A stretch of DNA of 59,340 nucleotides from a virus (IMGVR_UViG_3300038455_000058:1-59340); one strand, 5' to 3'. Numbered from the stretch's first letter, positions 1 through 56,949 are shown. The notes: generated by a model from the sequence alone, not told the origin. Translations and numbers: made by a program.

Positions 1-68
1 GTAAAGCATGCAGGCAATCACATGAACTGCGCCGCTCTGGTCTCGGGATGCTCGGACGACGTTCCGAC

Positions 69-590
69 CTACTGATCGCACACGGGCAGGTGCATTACAT
101 ACAACGGGGCCTCGTCGTAGTTCCCATTGTGCGTGTCGGCGACGATTGAGATGATGGTGCACGCAAACCCGTCGTCCCTGATGTCTCCCAACGCGGCCCC
201 CTCGAAGCCAATGTAGGGAGGGAGGTAGCCTCCGTAGGAGTACCCAACAAGGACTCCATCTGTGGTGTTATAAAAGTACTGAAACCGGGTGGTAGTTTGC
301 TTTGGCGCCCAGCCGAGGCAGCGCCACCCGGTTTCGGCGTCCCCCGTGTCGAAGTCATCAGGCGCATATGCGTATGGGCCCCCAATCAGGTCGTCTTTCT
401 GCGCTGGCACTGGGGCTGCCGGATTGCAGATCGCCACGTCGCCAGTGCCTTCATAGTGGGCACGAGCAGCATCGACGATCTGTCGCACATTGTCGATGGC
501 GATCTGTTCATCGTCCTGCGGCGCTGGCGCCCTCCCCACCTCGCTCGAGCACCCCACCAGCACACACGCCGCAACAAGTAGACGTCGCAT
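69..590 (-). CDS. Lipoprotein with type IV pilin-like globular domain (moron)
   Basis: Lipobox MRRLLVAACVLVG-C, then motifs ICNPAAPVPA, DFDTGDAETGWRCL, FQYFY, FEGAALGD that recall Polyangiaceae PilA head domains; no class III prepilin leader. Confidence 0.7.
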   Translation of the reverse strand: MRRLLVAACVLVGCSSEVGRAPAPQDDEQIAIDNVRQIVDAARAHYEGTGDVAICNPAAPVPAQKDDLIGGPYAYAPDDFDTGDAETGWRCLGWAPKQTTTRFQYFYNTTDGVLVGYSYGGYLPPYIGFEGAALGDIRDDGFACTIISIVADTHNGNYDEAPLYVMHLPVCDQ

Positions 591-624
591 CGTCTCATCC
601 TACTCTCTGCGGGGCTCCCCGCCT

Positions 625-660
625 AGGCCCTCGGCGTCGTGCCGGGGGCCTTTACTTTTC
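625..660. terminator. Intrinsic terminator-like hairpin insulating the lipoprotein gene
   Basis: AGGCCCTCGGC-GTCGT-GCCGGGGGCCT stem followed by TTACTTTTC on +; lies right after the stop of ORF 652..837 on -. Confidence 0.5.
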
Positions 661-837
661 TGGGTCCTTGGGAGGCGCGCCATGGGCCTTCTCGTAGTGC
701 TCTACGGCGCCCTCTAGCTCGCGGGCCGTGTGCCACTCCCATCGGCTCCGGTCGTGCTCGCCGTTCTCCATGGCCTCGGCTTGGGACTTGCGCAGTCGCG
801 CGGCCTCGGCTCGCATCCACTCGATCGTTTCGTTCAT
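652..837 (-). CDS. Hypothetical phage protein
   Basis: GGAG SD, ATGA coupling with 834..1076. Confidence 0.6.
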   Translation of the reverse strand: MNETIEWMRAEAARLRKSQAEAMENGEHDRSRWEWHTARELEGAVEHYEKAHGAPPKDPEK

Positions 838-1076
838 GTCTCATCTCCCGGCGCCGGCTCGCCGGACCGGATGCGGGCGGCGATGTATGCGGCCGTGCCA
901 CACGGCGTGTATTCGCATTCGGAGAGCACCGCCTCCACGATCCGAACGCAGCGCTCGCGTTCGGCGGCGATGGCGGCGGCGATGCGCCCCTGTACTCGCT
1001 CTTCCTCGACGGCAGGGCATCCGGCTGCGCAGAACCAATCGCCATCGCTGCGGAAGCACCCTTTTATGTGGCTCAT
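834..1076 (-). CDS. Hypothetical phage protein (AIAAERERC motif)
   Basis: ATGA-coupled; AERERCVRIVE...IAARIR pattern common in phage early proteins. Confidence 0.6.
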   Translation of the reverse strand: MSHIKGCFRSDGDWFCAAGCPAVEEERVQGRIAAAIAAERERCVRIVEAVLSECEYTPCGTAAYIAARIRSGEPAPGDET

Positions 1077-1400
1077 CTCCCACCCTCCCCGTCGTCGCCC
1101 GACCGTGGGCCGGGGCAGGGGCCAACGTCCGTCGTTTTCAGGAAATCACACGCCTTGCAATATTCGCCAAACTTGTCCCAGATCCACACGTGCCTCCGCG
1201 GCACCGCGTGGATCTTGCCGTCTGGCCCGAGCTCCGCGCGGTCGCCGGGTTCGCATGGGGAGCCGATGAGGAAGGTTTGGGGCATCTTGAACCGCCCTAC
1301 GGTGCACCCGAAAACGCATCCCCTTGCATCGCAACCGTTCGCGTGCTTCTCGTCGTACACGTTCTCCTCCATCCCCGGCGCCAGTGAGGGCGGGCGGGGG

Positions 1401-1604
1401 TTACATCCGGCTCGCGTAGTACTCTTGCCAACGTTCATCCCACATCGCGTGGTGCTCCTCGGCGCAGTCTCGACAGAGCAAGAGTGGCGCGTTTGGGTCC
1501 GGCTCACCGGGCTCATGGTGGTACATGGTGCGCGAGTCTTCCCACCTGACACCCTCACGTGAGCCGCAACATTCGCACTCATCGTGACTCCGGCACGTGC
1601 TCAC
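1401..1604 (-). CDS. Small Cys-rich hypothetical protein
   Basis: CECC...LCRDC; GTG start after GGAGG. Confidence 0.5.
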   Translation of the reverse strand: MSTCRSHDECECCGSREGVRWEDSRTMYHHEPGEPDPNAPLLLCRDCAEEHHAMWDERWQEYYASRM

Positions 1605-1658
1605 GCTTCCTCCGCTCCCGCTCCAGCCACCGCGCAACAACCTCGGACCGCGACACCC

Positions 1659-1841
1659 CTACCGCTTGATCTTGTACTCCGCCTCCAACGATTCCAGCCC
1701 CCTCACCAGGGCCGCCCGGTGGGCGATGCTCACGTCCGATGCCAACCCCGGCACTTTGGCGGCGAGGACCTCTGCAAGGCGCTCCAGCCGCGCCACGATG
1801 GTCTCGTCGAGGCGGATGCCGAGTTGTTTGGTGGGGCTCAT
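1659..1841 (-). CDS. Ribbon-helix-helix DNA-binding protein
   Basis: KQLGIRLDETIVARLERLAE...AALVRGL strand-helix-helix pattern. Confidence 0.6.
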   Translation of the reverse strand: MSPTKQLGIRLDETIVARLERLAEVLAAKVPGLASDVSIAHRAALVRGLESLEAEYKIKR

Positions 1842-2033
1842 CTGCGAGCCCCACGACGCATCGCCCGAATCGGGCGCCGCCCCTCGCGCAGCGAATCCTG
1901 TCCACACTGTGGGCAGTGTGTCTCTATGTAAGGAGAGTTGATCTCTCCGCTCCAGCACGCCCTCGCGCGAGAGCAATAGTAAACTCTCTTGGTCATGGAC
2001 ACGGGCCAGGGGGTCTTGATCATGACCATCTCC

Positions 2034-2228
2034 TCAGTGCGTCAGGGTCCCGCGAATCTCGAAGCAATCCACGGACTCGACACGAACATGCGTGCGCCAG
2101 CCTGCCGCGTTGCCGAGGCCCGTCACGAAGAGTGCGCCGTCGGCACGCACGCCCTCAACGCGGACGCCGTAGCGGGCGAAACCGGTCACCAGCACCATCT
2201 CGCGACCCACCAGGTTCGTCGTCTTCAT
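2034..2228 (-). CDS. Hypothetical protein, leaderless
   Basis: TAGGTT 6 nt before ATG. Confidence 0.5.
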   Translation of the reverse strand: MKTTNLVGREMVLVTGFARYGVRVEGVRADGALFVTGLGNAAGWRTHVRVESVDCFEIRGTLTH

Positions 2229-2382
2229 GTGCAGAACCTATTGCACTCCCCGTGCCACCGTCCAGCAACGCTAACCATCGGTAATCTTCGCTCGACAACG
2301 CTGTTCAGTATGACACGGCAACGGCACGGTCCATGCGCCACGGGAAAACCGGCATGACATCGGTGTCACTGCTATGCAACGT

Positions 2383-2553
2383 TTACCGATGCTGAACACG
2401 GCGGCGTTCTGCCTCGACGAGGCGGCTCACAATCTCGGACCGCGACACCCCCGCCGCGGTGGCGAGGGTGGTTAGGAACTCGACCAGGCCCCGCGGTAGG
2501 GTCAGGTCCAGGCGCACGCGCACGGCCTCGGGGGGCAGGCGGGGGCGAGGCAT
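2383..2553 (-). CDS. CopG/RHH DNA-binding protein
   Basis: MPRPRLP...RLDLTLP...AGVSRSEIVSRLV. Confidence 0.65.
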   Translation of the reverse strand: MPRPRLPPEAVRVRLDLTLPRGLVEFLTTLATAAGVSRSEIVSRLVEAERRRVQHR

Positions 2554-2740
2554 CAGGTGTCCCTCCGAATCCACTTCCCGCCGCAGAACTCGAACCCGTT
2601 GGACTTGAGCCATGCACGCTCGGCATCGGTTGCTGGACCGTCCAAGCGCACGACCCATCCGTACACGTGACGGGAGTGCGGAGGATTCCCGCTAAGCACT
2701 CGACGCCTGGGGTGCGACGCCTGGATACTTTCGGGGAAGT

Positions 2741-2908
2741 TCACTTGACCTGCTCCGAGCTGCCGTAGCAGTTCACGATGCGGATCCCGAGAGAGTCCGA
2801 CCAATAGGCGCGCGCCTCCTTGAGGGCCTCCTCGCGCGAAAGCCGGTAACCCTTCGTCACGGCCTTGAAGTGCTCCGTCCCCCAAAACTTGACTTCCACA
2901 TTCCACAT
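2741..2908 (-). CDS. Hypothetical protein, leaderless
   Basis: ATG 7 nt after TATTAT -10. Confidence 0.5.
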   Translation of the reverse strand: MWNVEVKFWGTEHFKAVTKGYRLSREEALKEARAYWSDSLGIRIVNCYGSSEQVK

Positions 2909-2915
2909 GCCAGGG

Positions 2916-2943
2916 ATAATAATCCCTGCGTATCCCGTGTCAA
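2916..2943 (-). promoter_or_regulatory. Sigma70-type promoter
   Basis: TTGACA-16 nt-TATTAT on minus strand, with GGGAT direct repeats in the spacer. Confidence 0.6.
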
Positions 2944-2984
2944 GGGCCCGGGGCCCATTCCAGGTCAATCCGCCCCACGACGGT

Positions 2985-3034
2985 CCCAAACCTACGGATA
3001 ACGCTACGGAATTGCACTGGTAGGCATAGTTGGG
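2985..3034. other. Candidate attP for serine integrase
   Basis: 50-bp non-coding imperfect inverted repeat (CCCAAACCTA...TAGTTGGG) downstream of integrase. Confidence 0.25.
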
Positions 3035-3043
3035 GTCCTCAGC

Positions 3044-3553
3044 TCAGTCCGCCCCACGCGGGTCTCCTGCAAGCTCCTGGGTCAGCGCGATCAGTTCCTC
3101 CGTTGGTTCGAACCACTCGCCGTTGTGGGCCATGCGCGCGCCAGCGAAGGCTCGTTGCAGCGCACGCTCAAGCTTCGGGCCGCCGGGCAAGACGCAGAGC
3201 AGACGCATGCGGCGGCCCGCGGATCCTGTTTGCAGAGCGTAGAGACGCGTCTTCTGGTTTTTAGCCCGGCCGATCTTGATGGCTCCAGCTTCCCCGTCCT
3301 GGATGAAGTAGACGTAGGTGCTCGGCTGCCCAGGCCTCTGGCCTTCTACAGACGCAGGATTCGAGATGCGCTCCCAAGCGTAGGCTACGGCCCTCTCAGC
3401 GGCCTCACGCGTGTCGTGGAGCCCTAAGCTGATTCGTTGCCCACCTACGCGGATGCGTGCTCTGAACCGCGAACCAAGCTGGCATACGCCGCCCCTGGGG
3501 CGCCTCATCGGAGCCGGCTCTCTTAGATTCTCTGGAGATAAAAGATCACTCAT
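3044..3553 (-). CDS. T5orf172/GIY-YIG-like nuclease with N-terminal AP2-like domain
   Basis: FRARIRVGGQRISLGLHDTREAA (AP2-like); YVYFIQ...IKIGRA...RLYALQTG...GEWF (T5orf172); start taken at MSDLL. Confidence 0.75.
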   Translation of the reverse strand: MSDLLSPENLREPAPMRRPRGGVCQLGSRFRARIRVGGQRISLGLHDTREAAERAVAYAWERISNPASVEGQRPGQPSTYVYFIQDGEAGAIKIGRAKNQKTRLYALQTGSAGRRMRLLCVLPGGPKLERALQRAFAGARMAHNGEWFEPTEELIALTQELAGDPRGAD

Positions 3554-3594
3554 ATCACGTTCAGTATAAGACGGACGCCGCACTTCGCAACAGA

Positions 3595-5082
3595 CTAGAT
3601 CGCCTTCCATTCGGCCTCTAGGCGCCATGTCCCCGTCCGTTGCCACTTGGCCCGAGCGGTAGAGTAGACACTCAGCCGGCTGGCGAGACGGGCTATCTTG
3701 GCGCGCTTCTCGGCAGTGGTGAGCGAGCCCCAGGCCGCCCGTACCTGGACGACGCTGGCGAGGACGGCGCGCCTATCTGTTGCCGTCTGTGCTGGGTGGT
3801 CTTCCTGGACTGCGCGCTCGCGCTCCACATCCTCGATGCCAGTCCGTATCTCGTCGAGTGTCTCACGGGCTTCCTCGTCGGACACAACGCCGCTGGCCAC
3901 CTTGCCCATGACGGTACGGCGCATCTTGAGGAGCGTCTCCTTGCGCTTGTCGTACTCATCCATCTTGGGTGGCGGTGGGACGCGCTTGGGCTTCGCCAGC
4001 TCGGCCGCTGACGCTTCCAGGTGTGCGAGCGCCAGCTTGTCCACGGCCGCGTCTAGCTCCGCGTGGCGCACAAGCGGCCCACGTTCGCACCTGTTTTCAT
4101 TCCCGTCCTGCCTGCGGCACATGTAGTAGCCGCCGTGTGTCACCGAGCCGCCGGGGGTGGGGGAGTGGCTGCGCATCACGTAGCCGCAGTGACCGCACCG
4201 CACGATGCCTCGCAGTAGGAAGTCCGCCGTCCTAGACTCATCGCTACCAGGTCGGCCGAGACACCTCCTACGTGAGAGCGTCTCCTGTGCTTGGCGCCAC
4301 GTCGCGCGGTCCACGATCGGCGGGTGGGATTCGATCCACTGGTCGCCAGGTTTGGCCGCCACACCCTTCTTGGCGGTGGGTCGCATCTCGCCGAGGTAGA
4401 CGCGGTTCCGAAGCTTGCGTGCGATGGCCGCTGGATCCAGGCCGCCGACGTCCGGATACGAATTCTCCAGCGCCGCTGATATCTCGCGCGTGGACTTGCC
4501 TGCGATGCACATGGCAAACATCCGCCGCACGATGGCCGCCTTGGCATCATCGATCGCGATGGTCCTCTCGGTCCGCTCCGCCCTGTATCCGAACGGCACG
4601 GCTCCCTCTACGAACTTCCCCATGGCCCGCAGCCGGCGCCTAGCGCCAACGGTGCGGTCACGGATGCGCGCGTGCTCCAGCTCGGCGACGTTGGCCATGG
4701 TGGCCGCCGCAAACTTGCCTTCTGGGGTGGATGGGTCGAACCGCTCGGCGATGGAGAAGAACCGCGCACCGCGCGAGATGATCTGCTCAACTGACTGGAG
4801 GTAGAAGAGCGTGTATCGGCTCCAGCGGTCTTGCTTGGAACACAGGACGAGATCCCCATCCCTGACATCGGCGAGCAGCCTGTGGAGTTCCAGCCGCTTC
4901 TCAAGCTTCTCCTGGCCGCCGCCCTCTACTTCGATGTAGACGCGTGGCTTCGGGTAGCCGCTGGTAGCGCAGTACCTGTCAAACTCTTCTTGCTGCGCCT
5001 CGAGTGAGGTGCCGCGCTCGTCTTGTTGTGTGCTGCTGACCCTGGCGTACGCGAGGACGCGCTTTGGCTTTTGCTGTCGCAT
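3595..5082 (-). CDS. Large serine recombinase (integrase)
   Basis: YARVSS catalytic motif, DRWSR, PFGY, H-PIVD--W recombinase domain, LLRGIVRCGHCG Zn ribbon, coiled coil. Confidence 0.95.
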   Translation of the reverse strand: MRQQKPKRVLAYARVSSTQQDERGTSLEAQQEEFDRYCATSGYPKPRVYIEVEGGGQEKLEKRLELHRLLADVRDGDLVLCSKQDRWSRYTLFYLQSVEQIISRGARFFSIAERFDPSTPEGKFAAATMANVAELEHARIRDRTVGARRRLRAMGKFVEGAVPFGYRAERTERTIAIDDAKAAIVRRMFAMCIAGKSTREISAALENSYPDVGGLDPAAIARKLRNRVYLGEMRPTAKKGVAAKPGDQWIESHPPIVDRATWRQAQETLSRRRCLGRPGSDESRTADFLLRGIVRCGHCGYVMRSHSPTPGGSVTHGGYYMCRRQDGNENRCERGPLVRHAELDAAVDKLALAHLEASAAELAKPKRVPPPPKMDEYDKRKETLLKMRRTVMGKVASGVVSDEEARETLDEIRTGIEDVERERAVQEDHPAQTATDRRAVLASVVQVRAAWGSLTTAEKRAKIARLASRLSVYSTARAKWQRTGTWRLEAEWKAI

Positions 5083-5183
5083 CGGTCCAACCCGCGCAGC
5101 AATACCACACGCAACTCCTCCAGGTCATCCTCTGAGAGCCGGTCAGGTGCTACTAGAGGAAGTGCCGCTGCGCGTGTGTTCAT
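4926..5183 (-). CDS. Small ORF overlapping integrase 5' end
   Basis: AGAGGA SD; amphipathic first 35 aa; overlaps integrase by 157 nt. Confidence 0.35.
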   Translation of the reverse strand: MNTRAAALPLVAPDRLSEDDLEELRVVLLRGLDRCDSKSQSASSRTPGSAAHNKTSAAPHSRRSKKSLTGTALPAATRSHASTSK

Positions 5184-5239
5184 GGATCCTCTTGACGGCG
5201 GTGACGGTACCTCGGTAGCGCGCGGTCATGGGCGGGAGT

Positions 5240-5431
5240 CTACGGCGCCCCAGCGTCGAGGCAAGGTACCACCCGGTGGAACCCACAACAGCGGCACACC
5301 TTGTGAAGATGCTCCGTCTTGTGGCCAGAGTCGCACCCATCGAAGTCACAATATTTGGTGGTCTCACCCGCCTCCGAACCACACTTTGGACAGACCGCCG
5401 TGGCCGCATCGCGATAGGGGCTAGGCGACAT
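5240..5431 (-). CDS. Small Zn-finger protein
   Basis: CPKCG...HLHKVCRCCG. Confidence 0.55.
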   Translation of the reverse strand: MSPSPYRDAATAVCPKCGSEAGETTKYCDFDGCDSGHKTEHLHKVCRCCGFHRVVPCLDAGAP

Positions 5432-6359
5432 CCTCATCCTCCATGGCGAGCGCATCCGCGCCATCACACGCGCACGACCATGGCTCCGACTTGGGCTTGA
5501 GTTCCTGAATCACGATCAGTTTCCTCCGTCTCTCATCGAGTCCGGCTGGTCGTGCCACGATGCAGTCACCGCGCGTTATCGATTCTCGGATCTGCATCCT
5601 GGCCGGCGCTTCAGCTAGTACCTGTGCATAGGACGTTCGACCACGGCGCATCGGAGCGTAGTCCCTCTCGATGGCCAACCATCGCTCGGCACCTGTCTCC
5701 GGATCGAGGAGGGCCGTAGCAAGGTCTCGCTCGTCCTTCATGAAGCACGCCTTACAGTTGCCAAGATGCTCTGGGATCTCTAGGTCGTATGGCTTGGCAC
5801 GCCACCACGAGATCACATCCGGCTTCGTGATGCCCGCGTCATATAGCGGGAACTGGATGTCAACGTTTCGCCGAGCCGAGGCGCGCTGCTTGCGCACCCG
5901 GTCAGGCTCATCGAATCGGAGCCCAACGTAATCCGTATACACTTCCCAGCCAAGTGACTGTGCATAGCGGTGCTTCGTCTTGATTTTGAGGTGAGCGGTG
6001 CACACACGCCGCCCAGCCCATGGCGCGATGGGCGGCTCCGGGGTTTCCTTCTGGGCGCGGAATGCGGCGAACATCTCCAGAAGTTCGTGTAACGGCTCTC
6101 CCTTTCTTGATAGTTCGGCGTGGGACACCTCCTCGAAACCGGCCAGGCGTGGCGGATCGCCACGATTCGGTGGTGGGCGCCATTCCAGGCGAACGATCGG
6201 CCTCTTCAGATCATCTTCCAGGCGGCAAAGAAACTCCAGCGTCTTCTCGTGCTCTTCGCCGGTGTTCTGAAACGTAAGTATCGTGTCGGCCGGCAGCATG
6301 AACGCCATGCGAGCCGATGTCCTTCCGCCGGAAATGCCGGCGAGGGAGTGCCAGCTCAC
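5421..6359 (-). CDS. PAPS-reductase-like (PP-loop) phage protein
   Basis: SGGRTS PP-loop, NTGEEH, CTAHLKIK, VGLRFDE..R, FPL, GNCKACFMK. Confidence 0.8.
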   Translation of the reverse strand: MSWHSLAGISGGRTSARMAFMLPADTILTFQNTGEEHEKTLEFLCRLEDDLKRPIVRLEWRPPPNRGDPPRLAGFEEVSHAELSRKGEPLHELLEMFAAFRAQKETPEPPIAPWAGRRVCTAHLKIKTKHRYAQSLGWEVYTDYVGLRFDEPDRVRKQRASARRNVDIQFPLYDAGITKPDVISWWRAKPYDLEIPEHLGNCKACFMKDERDLATALLDPETGAERWLAIERDYAPMRRGRTSYAQVLAEAPARMQIRESITRGDCIVARPAGLDERRRKLIVIQELKPKSEPWSCACDGADALAMEDEDVA

Positions 6360-13893: not shown

Positions 13894-13926
13894 ATCGTGC
13901 GTCCTACTGGCATCGCTGTCAACTGG
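13894..13926 (-). promoter_or_regulatory. PL-like promoter/operator
   Basis: TTGACA-17-CACGAT; 29/33 identical to inverted copy at 14539-14571. Confidence 0.75.
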
Positions 13927-13971: not shown

Positions 13972-14487
13972 TCAGTTTTTCTTGGGACGGGTAGGGCGCG
14001 CCTGGGTCTGTGTGGGCGCGACTTCTTGGAAGCCGCTTTGGGGCGGCGCCGGCCTGGACCCAACGGCCTCACCGAGGACGGCCTCCACCCTATCTAGCCA
14101 TGCCTCGATCTCCCTGTTGGTCATGCCTCCGCCGGCGCCAACTCCCATCCGGAGAGCCGTCTCCACGGTGTACTCGGACCACCTACCTGGCGCTTCTCTG
14201 AGCGAGTAGGTCAGCACCGCCTCGAGTGGGCCGGCCGGAGAGACCACCGGTGCGGCGCGTCTCCTGGTGCCCGTGGACACCATGTCCACCGCCTCTAGCC
14301 ACTCCACCGTGACACCGAGGGCTACGGCGATCCTGGAGACGAGCTCGTGTGGCGCCCTCCTCCCACGCTCGCCGCGCAGCAAACGCGAGGCGTAGCCCCT
14401 GGGTAGGTCTGCGGCGCGCTCCAGATCTCCGCCTGACCACCCAAGCCGATCTACCGCTTCGCGAAGCCGTTCCTTTGAGATTGGCAT
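13972..14487 (-). CDS. XRE-HTH immunity repressor (cI-like), leaderless
   Basis: ERLREA...WSGGDL...YASRLLRGER...IAVALGVTVEWL; TTGACG-18-CAGGAT-7-ATG; no obvious S24 peptidase domain. Confidence 0.85.
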   Translation of the reverse strand: MPISKERLREAVDRLGWSGGDLERAADLPRGYASRLLRGERGRRAPHELVSRIAVALGVTVEWLEAVDMVSTGTRRRAAPVVSPAGPLEAVLTYSLREAPGRWSEYTVETALRMGVGAGGGMTNREIEAWLDRVEAVLGEAVGSRPAPPQSGFQEVAPTQTQARPTRPKKN

Positions 14488-14538: not shown

Positions 14539-14571
14539 CCAGTTGACAGCGCTGCCAGTCGGACGCATGGT
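14539..14571 (+). promoter_or_regulatory. PR-like promoter/operator
   Basis: TTGACA-17-CATGGT; twin of 13894-13926. Confidence 0.75.
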
Positions 14572-18587: not shown

Positions 18588-18967
18588 CCGACTCGAGCAT
18601 TCGCGAGGCGTTCCGCAAGATGCAGCGCCAAGTCTACGCCCTCGCCGCAGAGAAGGGGTGGCACCCGGATGGTAGGGCGGACACGCCGGACAAGATTGCG
18701 GATTACGTGCCTCGCGCCGTCGCCAACCTTCATGGCGAGATGTCCGAGCTGTGGGAGGCATACCGCGCAGGCAAGCTTTACGAGCCGTGCGACAAGGCGG
18801 ACCGCATGGAGGAGCCGCTCACGTGCCTGGAGGAGGAGCTCGCTGATATCGGGATCCGATTGATGGATGGGGCAGAGAAGCTTGGCGTGGACCTGGGTAG
18901 GGCCATCGCGATTAAGCATTCCTACAACTCTGTGAGGCCGCATCGCCACGGCGGGAAGTTGGCCTGA
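18584..18967 (+). CDS. MazG-like NTP pyrophosphohydrolase
   Basis: [35 protein letters not shown]. Confidence 0.85.
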
Positions 18968-19467
18968 TGCCACGCAAAGCAAAGCCTACAGAATCTAGGT
19001 TCTGGCCCAAGGTGGAGAAGTCTGACGGTTGCTGGGCCTGGATTGGCGGAACATTCAAGCGCTCTGGGTATGGTGCCTTCAATGACACGACTAGGGTAGT
19101 TACGGCACACAGAAAGTCCTGGGAACTGCACTTCGGCGAGGTCCCTTCTGGTCTATTCGTGCTGCACAAGTGCGACAACCGCGTGTGCGTTAATCCAGAG
19201 CACCTATTTCTTGGAACTCACGCAGACAACATGGCCGACATTGGTGCCAAGGGGCGAGCTAGATCAGCAACACTGTCTCGCGATGAAATCGAGTCAATAC
19301 CGTTGTCGCGGGCCAGCGGTGAGTCATTGGCCACCATATCCGAGCGCCTGGGCGTGTCTAAGCAAGCCGTCTGCTACTGGATCAAGAAGCTTAGCGGTAG
19401 GGCTACGAGGCGTCGTAGCAGTTTTAATGCCACACGGACACACCGCCATGGCGGAAAGGTTGCCTAG
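18967..19467 (+). CDS. HNH homing endonuclease with C-terminal HTH
   Basis: RFWPKVEK...[31 protein letters not shown]. Confidence 0.9.
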
Positions 19468-34748: not shown

Positions 34749-35961
34749 CGGTGAGATAGAGCGCGAGCGCGTTCATGTCTTGCCGTGGGGCCGCGGCGTC
34801 GGTAAAAGCTGGTTTATCAGGCTGCTGTGGTGGCTCCTGATATCCCGCTGGGATGGGAGGATTAGGCCTGGAGCCAGGTCTCCTGGCATTCGGATAGTGG
34901 TCGCGATGCCGTCTTACAGACAGGCAAAGGCGGTGCACTTCCGCGAGATCCTGACCGAGCTGTACGGCGAGTGGAAGCACCTTGGCGGCACGCTGAATAG
35001 GTCCACGCTTGAGATATCGTTCCCGGGCGGCTCCTCGATTCGCTGGGTGACTGCCGAGAATCCCGTGGGCGCACGCGGATTGCGGTGCGACGTGGCGTTC
35101 TTCGACGAGGCGGACGACATCCCCATCGATATGTACGATGCGGTGTGCGTCCCGTGGTTTACCGAGCCGCATTCGTTCAACGTACGCGTGCTTTGCGGCA
35201 CGCCGATGCGCGGGCGTGGTGGCCTGCTATACCGCGAGTACGACGCTGCCAAACGCGGTGTGGATGGGTACTACGCCGTCCATGCTACGTATCTAGACGC
35301 GCCTAGCCACGCCAACATCGAGCGGGCTGAGCGGGCTCGAGAAAACATGCCGGATGCATGGTTCCGGCGCGAGTACCTGTGCGACTTCGACGCGGCGGAG
35401 GGGCTCGTTTACCCCGAGTTCAGCCGCGAGAAGCACATCGTTCCTTGGGACAAGTCCAAGCGTCCCAACGAGTGGATCTGCGGCGCGGACTTTGGTAGCG
35501 GCGTCCCGTCCTGCTACCTCGCGATCGCATATGATGGCGTGAAGTGCCACGTCGTACGCGAGGTCTACAAGGCCGGTATGCGCGACGAGGAGCTGGCGTC
35601 GATTGCCCGCACCTGGTCCAACGACTTTCCGCGCGCGAAGTGGTATGCGGACTACGCGTGGCCGAATACGATGGACTATGTACGCCGCCACGGTGGCATA
35701 AACATGGTCAACGCCGACAAGTCGGTTGAGGATGGGATCCTCACCGTTGGCTCATGGATTCACCGCGACAGGTTGCTGATTGACCCGTCGTGCAAGAACC
35801 TGATCGAAGAGATTCAGCAGTATCGCTGGACAACCGTCCGCAACCAGGACGGGCTGTTCAAGGACAAGCCGGACAAGAAAAAAGACCACGCCGTAGACGC
35901 CCTAAGATACGCGATATTCACGCGGTTCGGTAGGCCGCCGGCAATGCGCATCGAGCTGTGA
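34690..35961 (+). CDS. terL: Terminase large subunit
   Basis: GRGVGKS Walker A, FFDEAD Walker B, GTP, GADFG, DHAVDALRYA. Confidence 0.95.
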   Translation: MRIKLNKPETKALRNILTSDGEIERERVHVLPWGRGVGKSWFIRLLWWLLISRWDGRIRPGARSPGIRIVVAMPSYRQAKAVHFREILTELYGEWKHLGGTLNRSTLEISFPGGSSIRWVTAENPVGARGLRCDVAFFDEADDIPIDMYDAVCVPWFTEPHSFNVRVLCGTPMRGRGGLLYREYDAAKRGVDGYYAVHATYLDAPSHANIERAERARENMPDAWFRREYLCDFDAAEGLVYPEFSREKHIVPWDKSKRPNEWICGADFGSGVPSCYLAIAYDGVKCHVVREVYKAGMRDEELASIARTWSNDFPRAKWYADYAWPNTMDYVRRHGGINMVNADKSVEDGILTVGSWIHRDRLLIDPSCKNLIEEIQQYRWTTVRNQDGLFKDKPDKKKDHAVDALRYAIFTRFGRPPAMRIEL

Positions 35962-35975
35962 TTATATTCAATCAG

Positions 35976-36509
35976 ATGTGCCCAGTTGACGGTTGCGATC
36001 GTGTCGCTCGCGTCCGCGGTTTCTGCCACAAGCACTACTATGCAAAGCGGCGTTCCGGCGAGCTCCAGCTTATTTGTCGCCCTGTGAACTGTCTGGTTGA
36101 TGGATGCGAATCTAAGCCCAGGGGGCTAGGGTATTGCAGAAAGCACTATCAGAGGGTTAAGGTTCACGGAGATCCGAGCATCACACTTAGGGCGCCCCGT
36201 GGTGCCGGCAGAATAGACCCCTGTGGGTACAGGGAAGTATATCGCCCAGGTCATCCGAACGCAAATGTGTCTGGGTATGCCCGAGAACACAGGGTGGTGA
36301 TGTCAGAGGTGCTCGGCAGAGCCCTAATGGACCACGAAGTCGTCCATCACCTCAACGGCATAAGATCCGACAACCGACCAGAGAACCTAGAGCTTTGGAG
36401 CATCGGTCAACCTCCTGGGCAGAGGGTATCGGATAAGCTGGAGTGGGCCAGAGACTTCGTGATCCAGTATGGTAACGGGGTCGTGCATGACCACGACTAC
36501 GTTTGGTGA
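35976..36509 (+). CDS. HNH homing endonuclease between terL and portal
   Basis: Two C..DGC...G.C.KHY repeats; EHR.VM...VHHLNGIRSDNRPENLELW. Confidence 0.9.
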   Translation: MCPVDGCDRVARVRGFCHKHYYAKRRSGELQLICRPVNCLVDGCESKPRGLGYCRKHYQRVKVHGDPSITLRAPRGAGRIDPCGYREVYRPGHPNANVSGYAREHRVVMSEVLGRALMDHEVVHHLNGIRSDNRPENLELWSIGQPPGQRVSDKLEWARDFVIQYGNGVVHDHDYVW

Positions 36510-55360: not shown

Positions 55361-56046
55361 TCAAATTCGCCGACCACACTACCGGCATCTCAGACGTCCT
55401 CGGCTCGAGCGTGGACGGTGGAGAGGTGCGGCTCAACCTGGGTTTCTACCAGGGGACGAGCGAGGACCTTGGGATCGGTGCCGCCTCGCCGATGTGGAGT
55501 CAGGCTGGCTTCGCCTCTAGACCGGCTGACCCTGGGTCTGGTGGTGCCGCTATGGCACTGTGGCTCCAGGATGGGGACCAGCGTCGCGTGCTCGCGACCA
55601 GGGACAATAGGCGCGTAGAGAAGGTCGGGGATCTGAAGCCAGGTGGCGTCGCTATCTTCTCTAGCGGCACGTCAAACAGCTTCGTCACGCTCGACGGAGA
55701 GAACGGAACTATCTCGATCTACTCCCCGTACGCCTACTCGTCTGACGTGCCAGGCAAGGCGCACCTGATCGCGCTCAACACAGAGTCGGGCAATGAGTCC
55801 ATCTCGATCGTGCACGGTGAGGGGCACTCGATCCTGATGACTACGAGCGGGAGCCTTGTGTTGAAGAACAAGGCCGGAGACGCGTACATCGAGATCAATG
55901 ATGGCGGCATCGTGCTCAACGGCAACGTGACAATCAACGGTGGATTCGTCGCTGGTGATGTCACTACAGCGCTCCCAGTACTGGTCGGTACACCGCCAGG
56001 TACTCCGTCGACGGTCGTCAAGATCAGCATCAACCCGCCGCCTTGA
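55357..56046 (+). CDS. Baseplate spike (Mu gp45-like)
   Basis: GFASRP, D.R, LKPG..AI, beta-helix-like C-terminus. Confidence 0.75.
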   Translation: MIKFADHTTGISDVLGSSVDGGEVRLNLGFYQGTSEDLGIGAASPMWSQAGFASRPADPGSGGAAMALWLQDGDQRRVLATRDNRRVEKVGDLKPGGVAIFSSGTSNSFVTLDGENGTISIYSPYAYSSDVPGKAHLIALNTESGNESISIVHGEGHSILMTTSGSLVLKNKAGDAYIEINDGGIVLNGNVTINGGFVAGDVTTALPVLVGTPPGTPSTVVKISINPPP

Positions 56047-56348
56047 GCAATTGTGCATTCCCTGCGCTGAGCCTGTCCTTGGCGCTCCCGGCACTGCCAG
56101 GGCTCAGCCTGCCATCCTTGCCGTCTCTACCACCTCTCCCGAGCCTTCCAGGGCTGCCAGCGCTCGACATCAGCCTGGCACTTCCGGCGCTCCCAGGGCT
56201 CTCCCTGCCGTCTCTGCCGAGTCTCCCGAGCCTGCCGAGCCTCCCAGGATTGCCGTCTCTGAGCCTGTCCCTGGCAATCCCATCGCTGCCAGGGCTGACG
56301 CTGCCGAGCCTACCGGCGCTACCAAGCCTCTTCTGTCCGCTGGACTAG
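56043..56348 (+). CDS. Leu-Pro-X repeat protein with terminal Cys
   Basis: TTGA coupling to spike; about 3 copies of 32-aa unit; ends FCPLD. Confidence 0.65.
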   Translation: MSNCAFPALSLSLALPALPGLSLPSLPSLPPLPSLPGLPALDISLALPALPGLSLPSLPSLPSLPSLPGLPSLSLSLAIPSLPGLTLPSLPALPSLFCPLD

Positions 56349-56584
56349 GGGTAGACAACGACACACACGTAGGCGCCGTCGTTGCGGGTGAAGCACTTGC
56401 ACGACATGTGCTCGTAGAGCGCCAGGAAGCCGATCGCCAGCGCCACGCCGACAGCGAGCCGAACTACCACGGCTGGGCTCGGTCTGGGCTTCGGCTCGAC
56501 CACCTCGACCACATCCTCGGCGCGCAGCTCCTCAGGCTCCATGAGAAGCATGCTACCGCCTACTCCGGCAGCTTGTCCACACAC
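56345..56584 (-). CDS. Small membrane protein (antisense moron)
   Basis: One hydrophobic helix; follows lipoprotein; start uncertain. Confidence 0.4.
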   Translation of the reverse strand: MCGQAAGVGGSMLLMEPEELRAEDVVEVVEPKPRPSPAVVVRLAVGVALAIGFLALYEHMSCKCFTRNDGAYVCVVVYP

Positions 56585-56949
56585 AAGCCATTCCCGTTGC
56601 AGACGCCCTCAGAGCACGGGAAGCCAGGCGGCATGGCAACGATGCCACAGACGCCATGACCGCACGTCTTGCTCCAGCAATCAGGCGATCCAGACACGAC
56701 GCCGTGGCTCACCACCACCGGATCTGGGCACTCCAGTGCGCACGCACAGTAATCGGCGTTCGGGACCACGCCACATGGACCTACATCTGGCTTGACAGGC
56801 GGCGGGATGTGCGGAGTGACGATCTCGCCTGAGCCGCCAGCACCATCACCGCCGGCACCACCGCCACCAGTTCCGCCTTCGGTGGAATCGTCAGTGGCGC
56901 CACCGCAGGCGCAAAGCGCAATCGCGATCACAGCAAACAGAGTCCTCAT
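56560..56949 (-). CDS. Cys-rich lipoprotein moron, leaderless
   Basis: MRTLFAVIAIALCA-C lipobox, Gly linker, Cys-rich; TTGACA-16-TAGCCT-7-ATG. Confidence 0.75.
   Translation of the reverse strand: MRTLFAVIAIALCACGGATDDSTEGGTGGGGAGGDGAGGSGEIVTPHIPPPVKPDVGPCGVVPNADYCACALECPDPVVVSHGVVSGSPDCWSKTCGHGVCGIVAMPPGFPCSEGVCNGNGLCVDKLPE

What the first reader, a model, noticed from the sequence alone, without database searches (positions are those of the whole stretch)
69..651. Type IV pilin head domain re-routed as a lipoprotein: candidate receptor decoy or superinfection exclusion factor
Seen: a lipobox (LVG-C) is followed by a helix (IAIDNVRQIVDAARAHYE) and the motifs ICNPAAPVPA, DFDTGDAETGWRCL, FQYFY and FEGAALGD. 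The gene has its own leaderless promoter (TAGGAT-6-ATG) and an upstream hairpin. From recall, this motif order matches the globular domain of Polyangiaceae type IV pilins, but the GFTLIE prepilin leader and TM helix are replaced by a lipoprotein signal. Inference: lysogens express a pilin mimic that poisons pilus assembly or decoys pilus-binding phages.
Basis: partly seen in the sequence, partly recalled or inferred. Interest (0 to 1): 0.75.

Follow-up and report, generated by a model that had tools for sequence, protein, structure and literature searches.

The report
Phage lipoprotein carrying a pilin head
An uncultured temperate phage, probably of myxobacteria, encodes a small lipid-anchored protein that is the outer "head" of its hosts' pilus subunit without the stalk needed to build a pilus; it may let the phage tamper with host pili, but this is untested.

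Summary
The gene is real: window 69-590 (-), 173 aa, with a short signal peptide, lipobox LVGC (Cys14) and a roughly 9-residue tether. The rest folds confidently (pLDDT 88.6) as one long helix on a beta-sheet.

The mature part is homologous to the alpha1-C helix plus globular head of Sorangium/Polyangia type IV pilins (BLASTP 34% identity, E 3e-14, to a Sorangium pilin). The 13 best structural matches are all type IV pilins, though Z is only 7. The prepilin leader and hydrophobic alpha1-N stalk are absent, so it cannot be a fibre subunit.

It belongs to a small, fast-evolving lipoprotein-anchored subgroup known only from metagenome contigs. It lies in the accessory arm downstream of a serine integrase, in a 59-kb myovirus-like contig.

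The claimed "leaderless promoter" is not supported. TAGGAT lacks a -35 partner and contains a Shine-Dalgarno-like AGGA.

Function is inferred only. Most likely it is an envelope factor that interferes with, or mimics, the host pilus (superinfection exclusion). Known phage-encoded pilins (P-FimU, P-PilA) keep their stalk, so this head-only lipoprotein design is a new variant.

The host, expression, localisation and any effect on pili are all unknown.

The parts
69..590 (-). CDS of the 173-aa pilin-head lipoprotein (stop codon 69-71)
   Evidence: ORF list and translation. 90 relatives at E<=1e-3 besides itself. Confident AF2 model. Codon-position GC 0.64/0.47/0.71.
549..590 (-). Signal peptide with lipobox: MRR + LLVAACVLV + L-V-G-C (Cys14 = lipidation site)
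   Evidence: Read from the sequence. Lipoboxes at the same place in relatives P0002, P0005, P0007, P0008 and P0092. No SPII predictor was available.
522..548 (-). Tether, residues 15-23 (SSEVGRAPA), low confidence in the model
   Evidence: pLDDT 61-62 over residues 1-20, and no secondary structure before residue 24.
447..521 (-). Helix, residues 24-48, equivalent to pilin alpha1-C
   Evidence: AF2 H24-48. Aligns with the AKxxVGAIARxAxxAYE stretch of prepilins P0018, P0032 and P0039.
72..446 (-). Globular pilin head: alpha-beta loop with the conserved pair C55/C91, W89, F129-E130, a beta-sheet, and an extra Cys pair C144/C171
   Evidence: Invariant columns A42 C55 W89 C91 F129 in A1. Strands 103-109, 128-135, 145-154, 157-160 and 164-167. 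VIA-align ranks 1-13 are all type IV pilins.
597..602 (-). TAGGAT hexamer 6 nt before the ATG. It holds an AGGA Shine-Dalgarno-like core and, in the CDS frame, the stop TAG (600-602)
   Evidence: Sequence. No promoter-like site reported here.
609..651 (-). Two hairpins between the upstream ORF's stop (652-654) and the gene: 625-651 (12 pairs) and 609-622 (5 pairs)
   Evidence: -30.2 kcal/mol, z -2.56. The T-rich tail lies on the + strand.

Best explanation
Window 69-590 (-) encodes a phage-borne, Sec/SPII-exported lipoprotein. The mature protein is a short tether followed by the complete soluble module (alpha1-C helix, alpha-beta loop with the family's disulfide pair, beta-sheet) of the Polyangia/Sorangium-type type IVa pilin. 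It lacks the prepilin leader and the hydrophobic alpha1-N stalk, so it can neither be cut by the prepilin peptidase nor polymerise into a fibre (shown from sequence, homology and fold). It lies in the accessory arm between the missing late genes and the serine integrase of a temperate myovirus-like phage (shown). Inferred: with Ser at +2 it is probably sent to the outer membrane. There, a lipid-anchored pilin head would compete for, or mask, contacts normally made by the heads of host pilin subunits, for example with the assembly platform, the secretin vestibule or the fibre surface, or it would present that head to incoming phages. The net effect would be altered piliation or blocked pilus-dependent adsorption, that is, superinfection exclusion or protection of progeny. 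The structural statement is about 0.9 likely. The pilus-directed exclusion function is about 0.4 likely.
For: Gene and signal: ORF, sole start, n-region MRR, 9-10 hydrophobic residues, LVGC. The closest relatives P0002, P0005, P0007, P0008 and P0092 also carry a lipobox there, and the post-Cys motif C-[SG]-S-E-V is shared by P0001, P0005, P0007, P0008 and P0092.

Homology to true pilins:
- The exhaustive phmmer search gave 91 proteins at E<=1e-3, including the query itself.
- P0018 (E 1.4e-6) is WP_437787124, 'type IV pilin protein [Sorangium sp. So ce1097]'. It matches Pfam N_methyl at 3.6e-9. BLASTP to it gives 34% identity over 123 columns, E 3e-14.
- The profile of the 7 closest proteins hits the So ce56 pilin genes at 4.7e-22 and 1.3e-20.
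- Those Sorangium genes are tandem prepilin genes directly after a sigma-54 response regulator of PilR type.
- The alignment keeps A42, C55, W89, C91 and F129 invariant across lipoprotein and prepilin forms.

Fold:
- AF2 with 48 sequences gave pLDDT 88.6 and pTM 0.81, with helix 24-48 plus a 5-stranded sheet.
- VIA-align against 48,161 chains: ranks 1-13 are all type IV pilins (best 8tj2_C, M. xanthus PilA, Z 7.0, 124 aligned; 5v23 PilV, Z 7.0, rmsd 3.2, 89 aligned), and by my reading of the entry titles 28 of the 50 listed are pilins or pseudopilins.
- The ESM Atlas structure search gave TM 0.67 over 132 residues to a Myxococcota 'Type IV pilin PilA family' cluster.

Phage setting:
- The record is a viral contig, linear, 72% complete by CheckV.
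- Pfam finds a serine integrase at 3595-5082, a terminase, a tape-measure-type minor tail protein and baseplate J. PHROGs adds a portal, major head protein and tail sheath.
- The neighbour at 1401-1640 matches phrog_12292 at 6.5e-8.
- The gene's GC of 60.5% resembles the phage's 60-68%.

Precedent: prophage-encoded FimU replaces host FimU at the pilus tip and blocks tip-binding phages, and P-PilA genes occur in Xylella prophages (PMC12952977, passages read). Lys at +2 marks inner-membrane lipoproteins in M. xanthus, and no signal was seen for outer-membrane ones (PMC3222651, abstract and passages).
Against: Nothing shows expression, lipidation, localisation or any effect on pili.

- The host is unknown. 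No related prophage was found with the portal protein in 401 Polyangia-class genomes.
- The contig ends before the tail fibres, so it is unknown whether this or any competing phage uses pili.
- Foldseek found no significant PDB match. The best pilin was CofA at rank 13, E 1.3, TMq 0.33. A VIA-align Z of 7 is in the range the tool calls common for models without a clear match.
- The signal peptide is very short (Cys at position 14).
- The sorting rule comes from M. xanthus, which belongs to another class.
- Lipoprotein-anchored members of the wider family exist in bacterial chromosomes: by eye, 2 of 40 loci read, L038 and L042. L038 lies among ordinary genes with no pilus or phage genes nearby. 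So the architecture need not be an anti-phage device.
- No promoter-like site precedes the gene.
- A head without alpha1-N lacks the main subunit-subunit interface of pili, so 'poisoning' by co-assembly is mechanistically doubtful.
Confidence: 0.42

Rival explanations
1. Surface or vesicle-borne decoy. The lipoprotein is flipped to the cell surface or shed on outer-membrane vesicles, and its pilin head soaks up phages, or other agents, that recognise the host pilin. Pilus assembly itself is not touched.
For: The head is the part of a pilin that is exposed on a fibre. The query sits on a very long terminal branch (2.22 against a median of 0.59), as expected of a surface under an arms race. M. 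xanthus exports some lipoproteins beyond the outer membrane (PMC3222651).
Against: The +7 Ala signal for export to the matrix in M. xanthus is not present (Arg at +7; sequence, rule). A decoy fixed on the cell's own surface would attract phages rather than repel them. There is no evidence on surface exposure.
Confidence: 0.15
2. A lysogenic-conversion or host-type envelope protein unrelated to phage exclusion. It would be a member of a bacterial family of lipid-anchored pilin-head proteins whose native role (adhesion, matrix or polysaccharide binding, cell-cell contact) the phage has borrowed to change host social behaviour.
For: The pilin-head domain is redeployed in many architectures. In a regex-based sorting of 90 family representatives, 37 are long fusions, 17 are lipobox-type, 6 are canonical prepilins and 30 are other. 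Long forms carry DUF3352 (P0011, 7.4e-7). Chromosomal lipoprotein-type members L038 and L042 exist, and L038 has an ordinary chromosomal context.
Against: The query's own subgroup (the PQDEAIQNV motif) was not found in any sampled bacterial genome. The best scores were 3.6e-27 (class draw of 401) and 2.4e-27 (order draw of 301), against 1e-52 or better for true members. No function is known for any of these proteins.
Confidence: 0.2
3. Not a phage gene. It would be host DNA at the edge of a prophage-containing contig, or a decaying pilin remnant with no function.
For: The gene is the last one on the contig, 68 nt from its end. It is separated from the phage genes by a strong hairpin. No other viral record holds a relative.
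Against: The contig is the whole assembled record and breaks inside a gene at its other end. The gene's strand and GC match the neighbouring phage genes. A PHROG family gene lies 800 nt away on the same strand. No tRNA or att-like repeat separates them. The frame is intact, the model confident and the family's core residues are kept, which argues against decay.
Confidence: 0.1

Closest known systems
Prophage-encoded pilins: P-FimU of F10-like Pseudomonas aeruginosa prophages and P-PilA of Xylella fastidiosa prophages (PMC12952977; passages read)
   Same: A temperate phage carries a copy of a host type IV pilus subunit. The proposed benefit is blocking pilus-dependent phages.
   Different: [quoted passage not shown] The protein here is the reverse case: only the head, on a lipoprotein anchor, unable to enter the fibre. 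No sequence relation was seen (no hit of P0001 in 50,697 GenBank phage records at E<=1).
Sorangium/Polyangia type IVa pilins (e.g. WP_437787124, Sorangium sp. So ce1097; tandem genes after a PilR-like regulator in So ce56)
   Same: Homologous alpha1-C helix and head, 34% identity. The two mid-domain Cys, W89 and the F-E motif are shared. The arrangement of two Cys in the middle of the C-terminal domain is described for Sorangiineae and Nannocystineae PilA homologues in PMC6060248 (passages read).
   Different: There is no GFTL[IV]E leader, no alpha1-N, and no C-terminal Glu. The protein has a lipobox instead, plus an extra Cys (C171) near the C-terminus.
Phage superinfection-exclusion lipoproteins and receptor blockers: Cor of phi80/N15 (PMC11436027, passages read); T5 Llp and S. 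thermophilus TP-J34 Ltp (recalled, not checked here)
   Same: A small phage-encoded envelope lipoprotein in an accessory or lysogeny region, acting at the receptor or entry step.
   Different: No sequence or fold relation was found (no PHROG or Pfam match). Those proteins bind a receptor or the incoming tape measure. This one is a copy of part of the presumed receptor.
Cytoplasmic phage inhibitors of pilus assembly: D3112 gp05 (Tip) and DMS3 Aqs1 (table in PMC11436027; that they target PilB is recalled); Zip, which acts through PilZ (10.1101/2024.03.05.583538, abstract start in the listing)
   Same: Prophage proteins that switch off the pilus receptor.
   Different: Those act in the cytoplasm on the motor. 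This protein is exported and mimics the subunit.

Membership tests
Type IV pilin (class III signal peptide protein, fibre subunit) | Prepilin leader ending in Gly, followed by F/M(+1) and E(+5) (Pfam N_methyl) | tested here: not met
   No Pfam hit at E<=10. The N-terminus is MRRLLVAACVLVGC. P0018 of the same family does match N_methyl at 3.6e-9.
Type IV pilin (class III signal peptide protein, fibre subunit) | Hydrophobic alpha1-N segment of about 25 residues that forms the fibre core | tested here: not met
   In alignment A1 the prepilins' IELMIVVAIIGVLAALAI segment has no counterpart in the mature query. The query's helix starts at the alpha1-C part.
Type IV pilin (class III signal peptide protein, fibre subunit) | Head fold: alpha1-C packed on an antiparallel beta-sheet | tested here: met
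   AF2 pLDDT 88.6. VIA-align ranks 1-13 are all pilins, Z up to 7.0. Atlas TM 0.67 to a Myxococcota PilA cluster. Foldseek alone was not significant.
Type IV pilin (class III signal peptide protein, fibre subunit) | Sequence homology of the head to bona fide pilins | tested here: met
   P0018, 1.4e-6; E 3e-14; profile against So ce56 pilin genes, 4.7e-22; family profile A2 against the window, 8.9e-39.
Bacterial lipoprotein (Sec/SPII) | Positively charged n-region, hydrophobic h-region, lipobox [LVI][ASTVI][GAS]C | tested here: met
   MRR / LLVAACVLV / L-V-G-C14. The h-region is short. Lipoboxes are conserved in P0002, P0005, P0007, P0008 and P0092. The consensus is recalled, and no SignalP/LipoP was available.
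Bacterial lipoprotein (Sec/SPII) | Actual lipidation and cleavage by signal peptidase II | not testable with these tools
   Needs globomycin or palmitate labelling.
Phage-encoded pilins that enter the pilus (P-FimU / P-PilA) | Complete pilin able to replace the host subunit in the pilus | tested here: not met
   Leader and alpha1-N are absent. Definition from PMC12952977.
Moron (independently transcribed accessory gene of a temperate phage) | Own promoter and terminator flanking the gene | tested here: inconclusive
   No promoter-like site in 591-700. A hairpin lies upstream, but its T-tail is on the other strand. The downstream side is cut by the contig end.
Known superinfection-exclusion lipoproteins (Llp, Cor, Ltp) | Sequence or family membership | tested here: not met
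   0 PHROG, 0 Pfam and 0 NCBIfam families at E<=10.

The most novel reading that the evidence does not exclude
The PQDEAIQNV subgroup is a phage-borne class of receptor mimics. These would be lipid-anchored, stalk-less pilin heads sent to the outer membrane, and from there possibly onto vesicles or, in myxobacteria, to neighbouring kin by outer-membrane exchange. They would act as competitive inhibitors at the pilus machine or as decoys, giving lysogens, and perhaps their kin, protection against pilus-dependent phages. That would be a mode of superinfection exclusion distinct from both motor inhibitors and pilus-incorporated phage pilins.
Probability: 0.25. Interest if true: 0.75.

Novelty: new variant of a known kind. 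Interest (0 to 1): 0.55.

Why it matters
Phages that copy parts of their receptor are a newly recognised defence and competition strategy; P-FimU was published in 2026. A head-only pilin on a lipid anchor would be a mechanistically different way to exploit such a copy.

It would also give a handle on pilus biology and phage receptors in Polyangia (Sorangium-like myxobacteria), where almost no phages or pilus functions have been studied.

It further points to an unnamed domain family. This pilin head is reused in prepilins, membrane-anchored forms, roughly 700-residue lipoproteins and short lipoproteins. No Pfam model matched the head in any of the 40 family members scanned or in the query.

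Tried and rejected
- Family libraries: Pfam, NCBIfam and PHROGs gave no hit for the protein at E<=10. The PDB sequence search gave only a 1.2 E-value methyltransferase. The family profile A2 against PDB gave M. xanthus PilA 8tj2_C at E 0.03, through the N-terminal helix of the prepilin rows only.
- The word-indexed protein search found only the query itself.
- Foldseek against PDB and BFVD gave no match at E<=0.001.
- Searches for relatives on other records all returned nothing usable:
  - GTDB genome contigs with A3.
  - JGI metagenome contigs with A3.
  - GenBank phages by tblastn.
  - Because of this, the genomic context of the closest relatives (P0002-P0008, P0092; contigs of 1.2-36 kb) could not be seen.
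- Phage relatives: the integrase gave one 26%-identical IMG/VR locus. The portal gave nothing in IMG/VR, GenBank phages or 401 Polyangia genomes. Host assignment therefore rests on the pilin family's distribution alone.
- Sequencing runs: one DNA holder was listed (a wetland metagenome, possibly the source) and no RNA holder. Laying its contigs on 1-2500 gave only 18-23-nt chance pieces and no extension of the contig end.
- My crude lipobox regex over all frames missed even the target, so it says nothing about other lipoproteins in the window.
- Spanin or lysis role rejected: the protein has 173 residues with a folded domain, and the upstream 61-aa ORF has no membrane segment.
- Tat signal rejected: the signal is too short and has no S/T-R-R-x-F-L-K context (recalled motif).
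- Complex prediction was not used. The host and its pilus proteins are unknown, and a stand-in would not be informative.
- Print search: three full-text searches listed no paper that, by title or abstract start, describes a lipoprotein-anchored pilin head in a phage. Supplements of PMC12952977 (Table S3, phage PilA-like groups) were not seen and could hold such a case.

Full report
**What is there.** The window is a single viral record of 59,340 bp, classed linear and 72% complete by CheckV. On the minus strand, 69-590 is an open frame of 173 codons.
- An in-frame TAG four codons upstream makes the ATG at 590 the only possible start.
- Codon-position GC (0.64/0.47/0.71) fits a coding frame in this 60-68% GC element.
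- The opposite-strand frame 297-581 is a shadow frame. Only the minus-strand product has relatives and a confident fold.

**Signal.**
- The N-terminus is MRR, then nine to ten hydrophobic residues, then L-V-G-C with Cys at position 14. This is a lipoprotein-type signal, although unusually short.
- The nearest relatives P0002, P0005, P0007, P0008 and P0092 have a lipobox at the same place. P0001, P0005, P0007, P0008 and P0092 share C-[SG]-S-E-V after it.
- No SPII predictor was available, so this rests on the recalled consensus and on conservation.
- Ser at +2 (not Lys) and Arg at +7 (not Ala) would make it an outer-membrane lipoprotein by the M. xanthus rules (PMC3222651, abstract and passages). 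Applying this to an unknown host of another class is an extrapolation.

**Pilin head: homology.**
- Pfam, NCBIfam, PHROGs and the PDB sequence search were blank, and the word-indexed search found only the query.
- The exhaustive phmmer search gave 91 proteins at E<=1e-3 including the query, 5 of them at <=1e-10.
- One of them, P0018 (E 1.4e-6), is annotated 'type IV pilin protein [Sorangium sp. So ce1097]'. It has a canonical GFTLIE leader (Pfam N_methyl 3.6e-9). BLASTP of the query against it gives 34% identity over 123 columns, E 3e-14.
- A profile of the seven closest proteins (A3) hits the pilin genes of Sorangium cellulosum So ce56 at 4.7e-22 and 1.3e-20.
- In So ce56 these are tandem prepilin genes immediately after a sigma-54 response regulator of PilR type.
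- In alignment A1 the query's helix IAIDNVRQIVDAARAHYE lies on the alpha1-C segment (AKxxVGAIARxAxxAYE) of the prepilins. A42, C55, W89, C91 and F129 are invariant in 17 of 17 rows.
- Two Cys in the middle of the C-terminal domain is the arrangement described for Sorangiineae and Nannocystineae PilA homologues (PMC6060248, passages).

**Pilin head: fold.**
- AF2 with a 48-row alignment gave pLDDT 88.6 and pTM 0.81. The model has a disordered tether to residue 23, helix 24-48, then a five-stranded sheet.
- Foldseek against PDB found nothing significant; the type IVb pilin CofA was at rank 13 with E 1.3.
- VIA-align against 48,161 representative chains put type IV pilins at ranks 1-13. The best were M. 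xanthus PilA 8tj2_C (Z 7.0, 124 aligned) and PilV 5v23 (Z 7.0, rmsd 3.2, 89 aligned). By my reading of the entry titles, 28 of the 50 listed are pilins or pseudopilins.
- Z 7 alone is middling by the tool's own note. The weight comes from the uniform identity of the top hits together with the sequence homology.
- The ESM Atlas structure search gave TM 0.67 over 132 residues to a Myxococcota 'Type IV pilin PilA family' cluster.
- BFVD gave nothing.

**What it is not.** The prepilin leader and the hydrophobic alpha1-N are absent. It therefore fails two defining features of a pilin and cannot be a fibre subunit. It is a pilin head on a lipid anchor.

**Family picture.** I sorted 90 representatives by regular expressions; the labels are crude, and 3 FG-GAP-type chance hits were dropped.

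| Form | Rows |
|---|---|
| Domain at the C-terminus of 400-775-aa proteins | 37 |
| Lipobox-type N-terminus | 17 |
| Canonical leader | 6 |
| Other (truncated, variant leader or plain membrane anchor) | 30 |

- Some of the long forms match DUF3352.
- In a quick maximum-likelihood tree the query falls in a 9-row group (SH-aLRT 88) that shares the motif PQDEAIQNV. That group lies inside an 18-row clade (96) with no canonical prepilin. The query's terminal branch is 2.22 against a median of 0.59.
- A profile search for this subgroup found only 8 proteins at E<=1e-6, each a single-member cluster on one contig.

**Distribution.**
- The family profile A3 matched 68 of 401 Polyangia-class genomes at E<=1e-5, 15 of 301 genomes of one order at E<=1e-18, and 6 of 401 genomes of the phylum draw at E<=1e-15. 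All six handles also appear among the matches of the class draw.
- None of these scored like a true subgroup member. The best were 3.6e-27 (class) and 2.4e-27 (order), against 1e-52 or better.
- I read the N-termini of 40 bacterial loci by eye: 26 prepilin-like, 10 plain membrane anchors, 1 long fusion, 2 lipoprotein-type (L038, L042) and 1 unclear.
- L038 lies among a cyclophilin, a radical-SAM protein, a Sel1 protein and an SNF2 helicase, with no pilus or phage genes nearby.
- No other viral record holds a relative: IMG/VR with two profiles and GenBank phages.

**Phage context.**
- The contig encodes a large serine integrase (3595-5082, -), a T5orf172 protein, ribbon-helix-helix proteins and an HTH repressor-like gene (13972-14487) flanked by a 29-nt inverted repeat.
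- It also encodes a sigma-70 region 4 protein, a DNA methylase, a beta clamp, DnaB and RusA.
- The structural genes include a terminase, portal, major head protein, sheath, tape-measure-type minor tail protein and baseplate J. The contig breaks inside the next gene.
- The lipoprotein gene is the last of a run of minus-strand genes downstream of the integrase. The ORF at 1401-1640 is a PHROG family member (6.5e-8).
- There are no tRNAs or terminal repeats.
- If attP lies beside the integrase gene, as is usual for serine integrases (recalled), the gene would sit between the late genes and int in the prophage. That is the usual place for accessory genes.

**Regulatory claims.**
- The 61-nt spacer holds two hairpins, 625-651 (12 pairs) and 609-622, together -30.2 kcal/mol with z -2.56.
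- The scan reported 4 promoter-like sites in 1-5600 and none here.
- TAGGAT has no acceptable -35 partner and contains AGGA 7 nt from the ATG. A leaderless promoter is therefore not supported, though it is not excluded for a host with unknown promoter rules.
- The large hairpin's T-tract is on the + strand, which I cannot explain.

**Mechanism.**
- Shown: an exported, probably lipid-anchored, stalk-less pilin head in a temperate phage.
- Inferred: it acts on the host's type IV pilus system, most likely as an exclusion factor.
- The analogy is with P-FimU and P-PilA (PMC12952977, passages) and with receptor-directed phage proteins such as Cor (PMC11436027, passages). Llp and Ltp are recalled, not checked.
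- Co-assembly into the fibre is unlikely without alpha1-N. Competition for partners of the pilin head, or masking, is more plausible.
- Rivals are a surface or vesicle decoy, a borrowed host envelope function unrelated to phages, and a non-phage or decaying gene.
It shares no sequence words with this protein. I could not check it, so it is a lead that the design may recur and not support.

**Verdict.** The promoter is not supported and the function is untested. The design, head only and lipid anchored, differs from the phage pilins in print. Three full-text searches listed no such case, and supplements were not seen.

Noticed in passing
window 13898-13926 and 14539-14567: A 29-nt inverted repeat (93% complementary) brackets the HTH_3 repressor-like gene 13972-14487 (-). 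The two arms may be operator sites on both sides of the immunity gene, at the switch between leftward and rightward genes.
   Followed up: no
window 56057-56324: Three copies of a 76-nt unit at 96-nt spacing (67-74% identity) lie inside ORF 55940-56659 (+), between the baseplate genes. They would give a Leu/Pro/Ser-rich 32-residue protein repeat. No family match was found for this ORF.
   Followed up: no
window 1637-1665 and 2429-2457: A 29-nt direct repeat (90%) lies at or just beside two small minus-strand genes (1659-1976 and 2383-2658). The second matches ribbon-helix-helix RHH_5. They may be paralogous regulators in the integrase arm.
   Followed up: no
window 625-661: The 12-bp hairpin upstream of the lipoprotein gene has its T-rich tail on the + strand. 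It therefore looks like a terminator for transcription running antisense through the lipoprotein gene.
   Followed up: partly
window 18967-19467 and 35958-36509: There are two HNH_3 endonuclease genes, one before the beta-clamp gene and one inserted between the terminase large subunit and the portal. The phage also carries its own beta clamp, DnaB, a sigma-70 region 4 protein, an N6/N4 methylase and a PAPS-reductase-like gene (5421-6359).
   Followed up: no
proteins P0010, P0011, P0015 etc.; locus L015 (G310:C50): About 37 of 90 family representatives are 400-775-aa proteins, often with a lipobox at the N-terminus. A large DUF3352-like domain is followed by a membrane-like segment and this pilin head at the C-terminus. 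This looks like an unnamed architecture in Polyangia. Nearly all family members end in Glu, which the phage protein does not.
   Followed up: partly
L014 (Sorangium cellulosum So ce56, 6035899-6052480): Three tandem genes of this pilin family follow a sigma-54 PilR-type response regulator. Each of the three Sorangium genomes checked has 4-5 family copies.
   Followed up: partly
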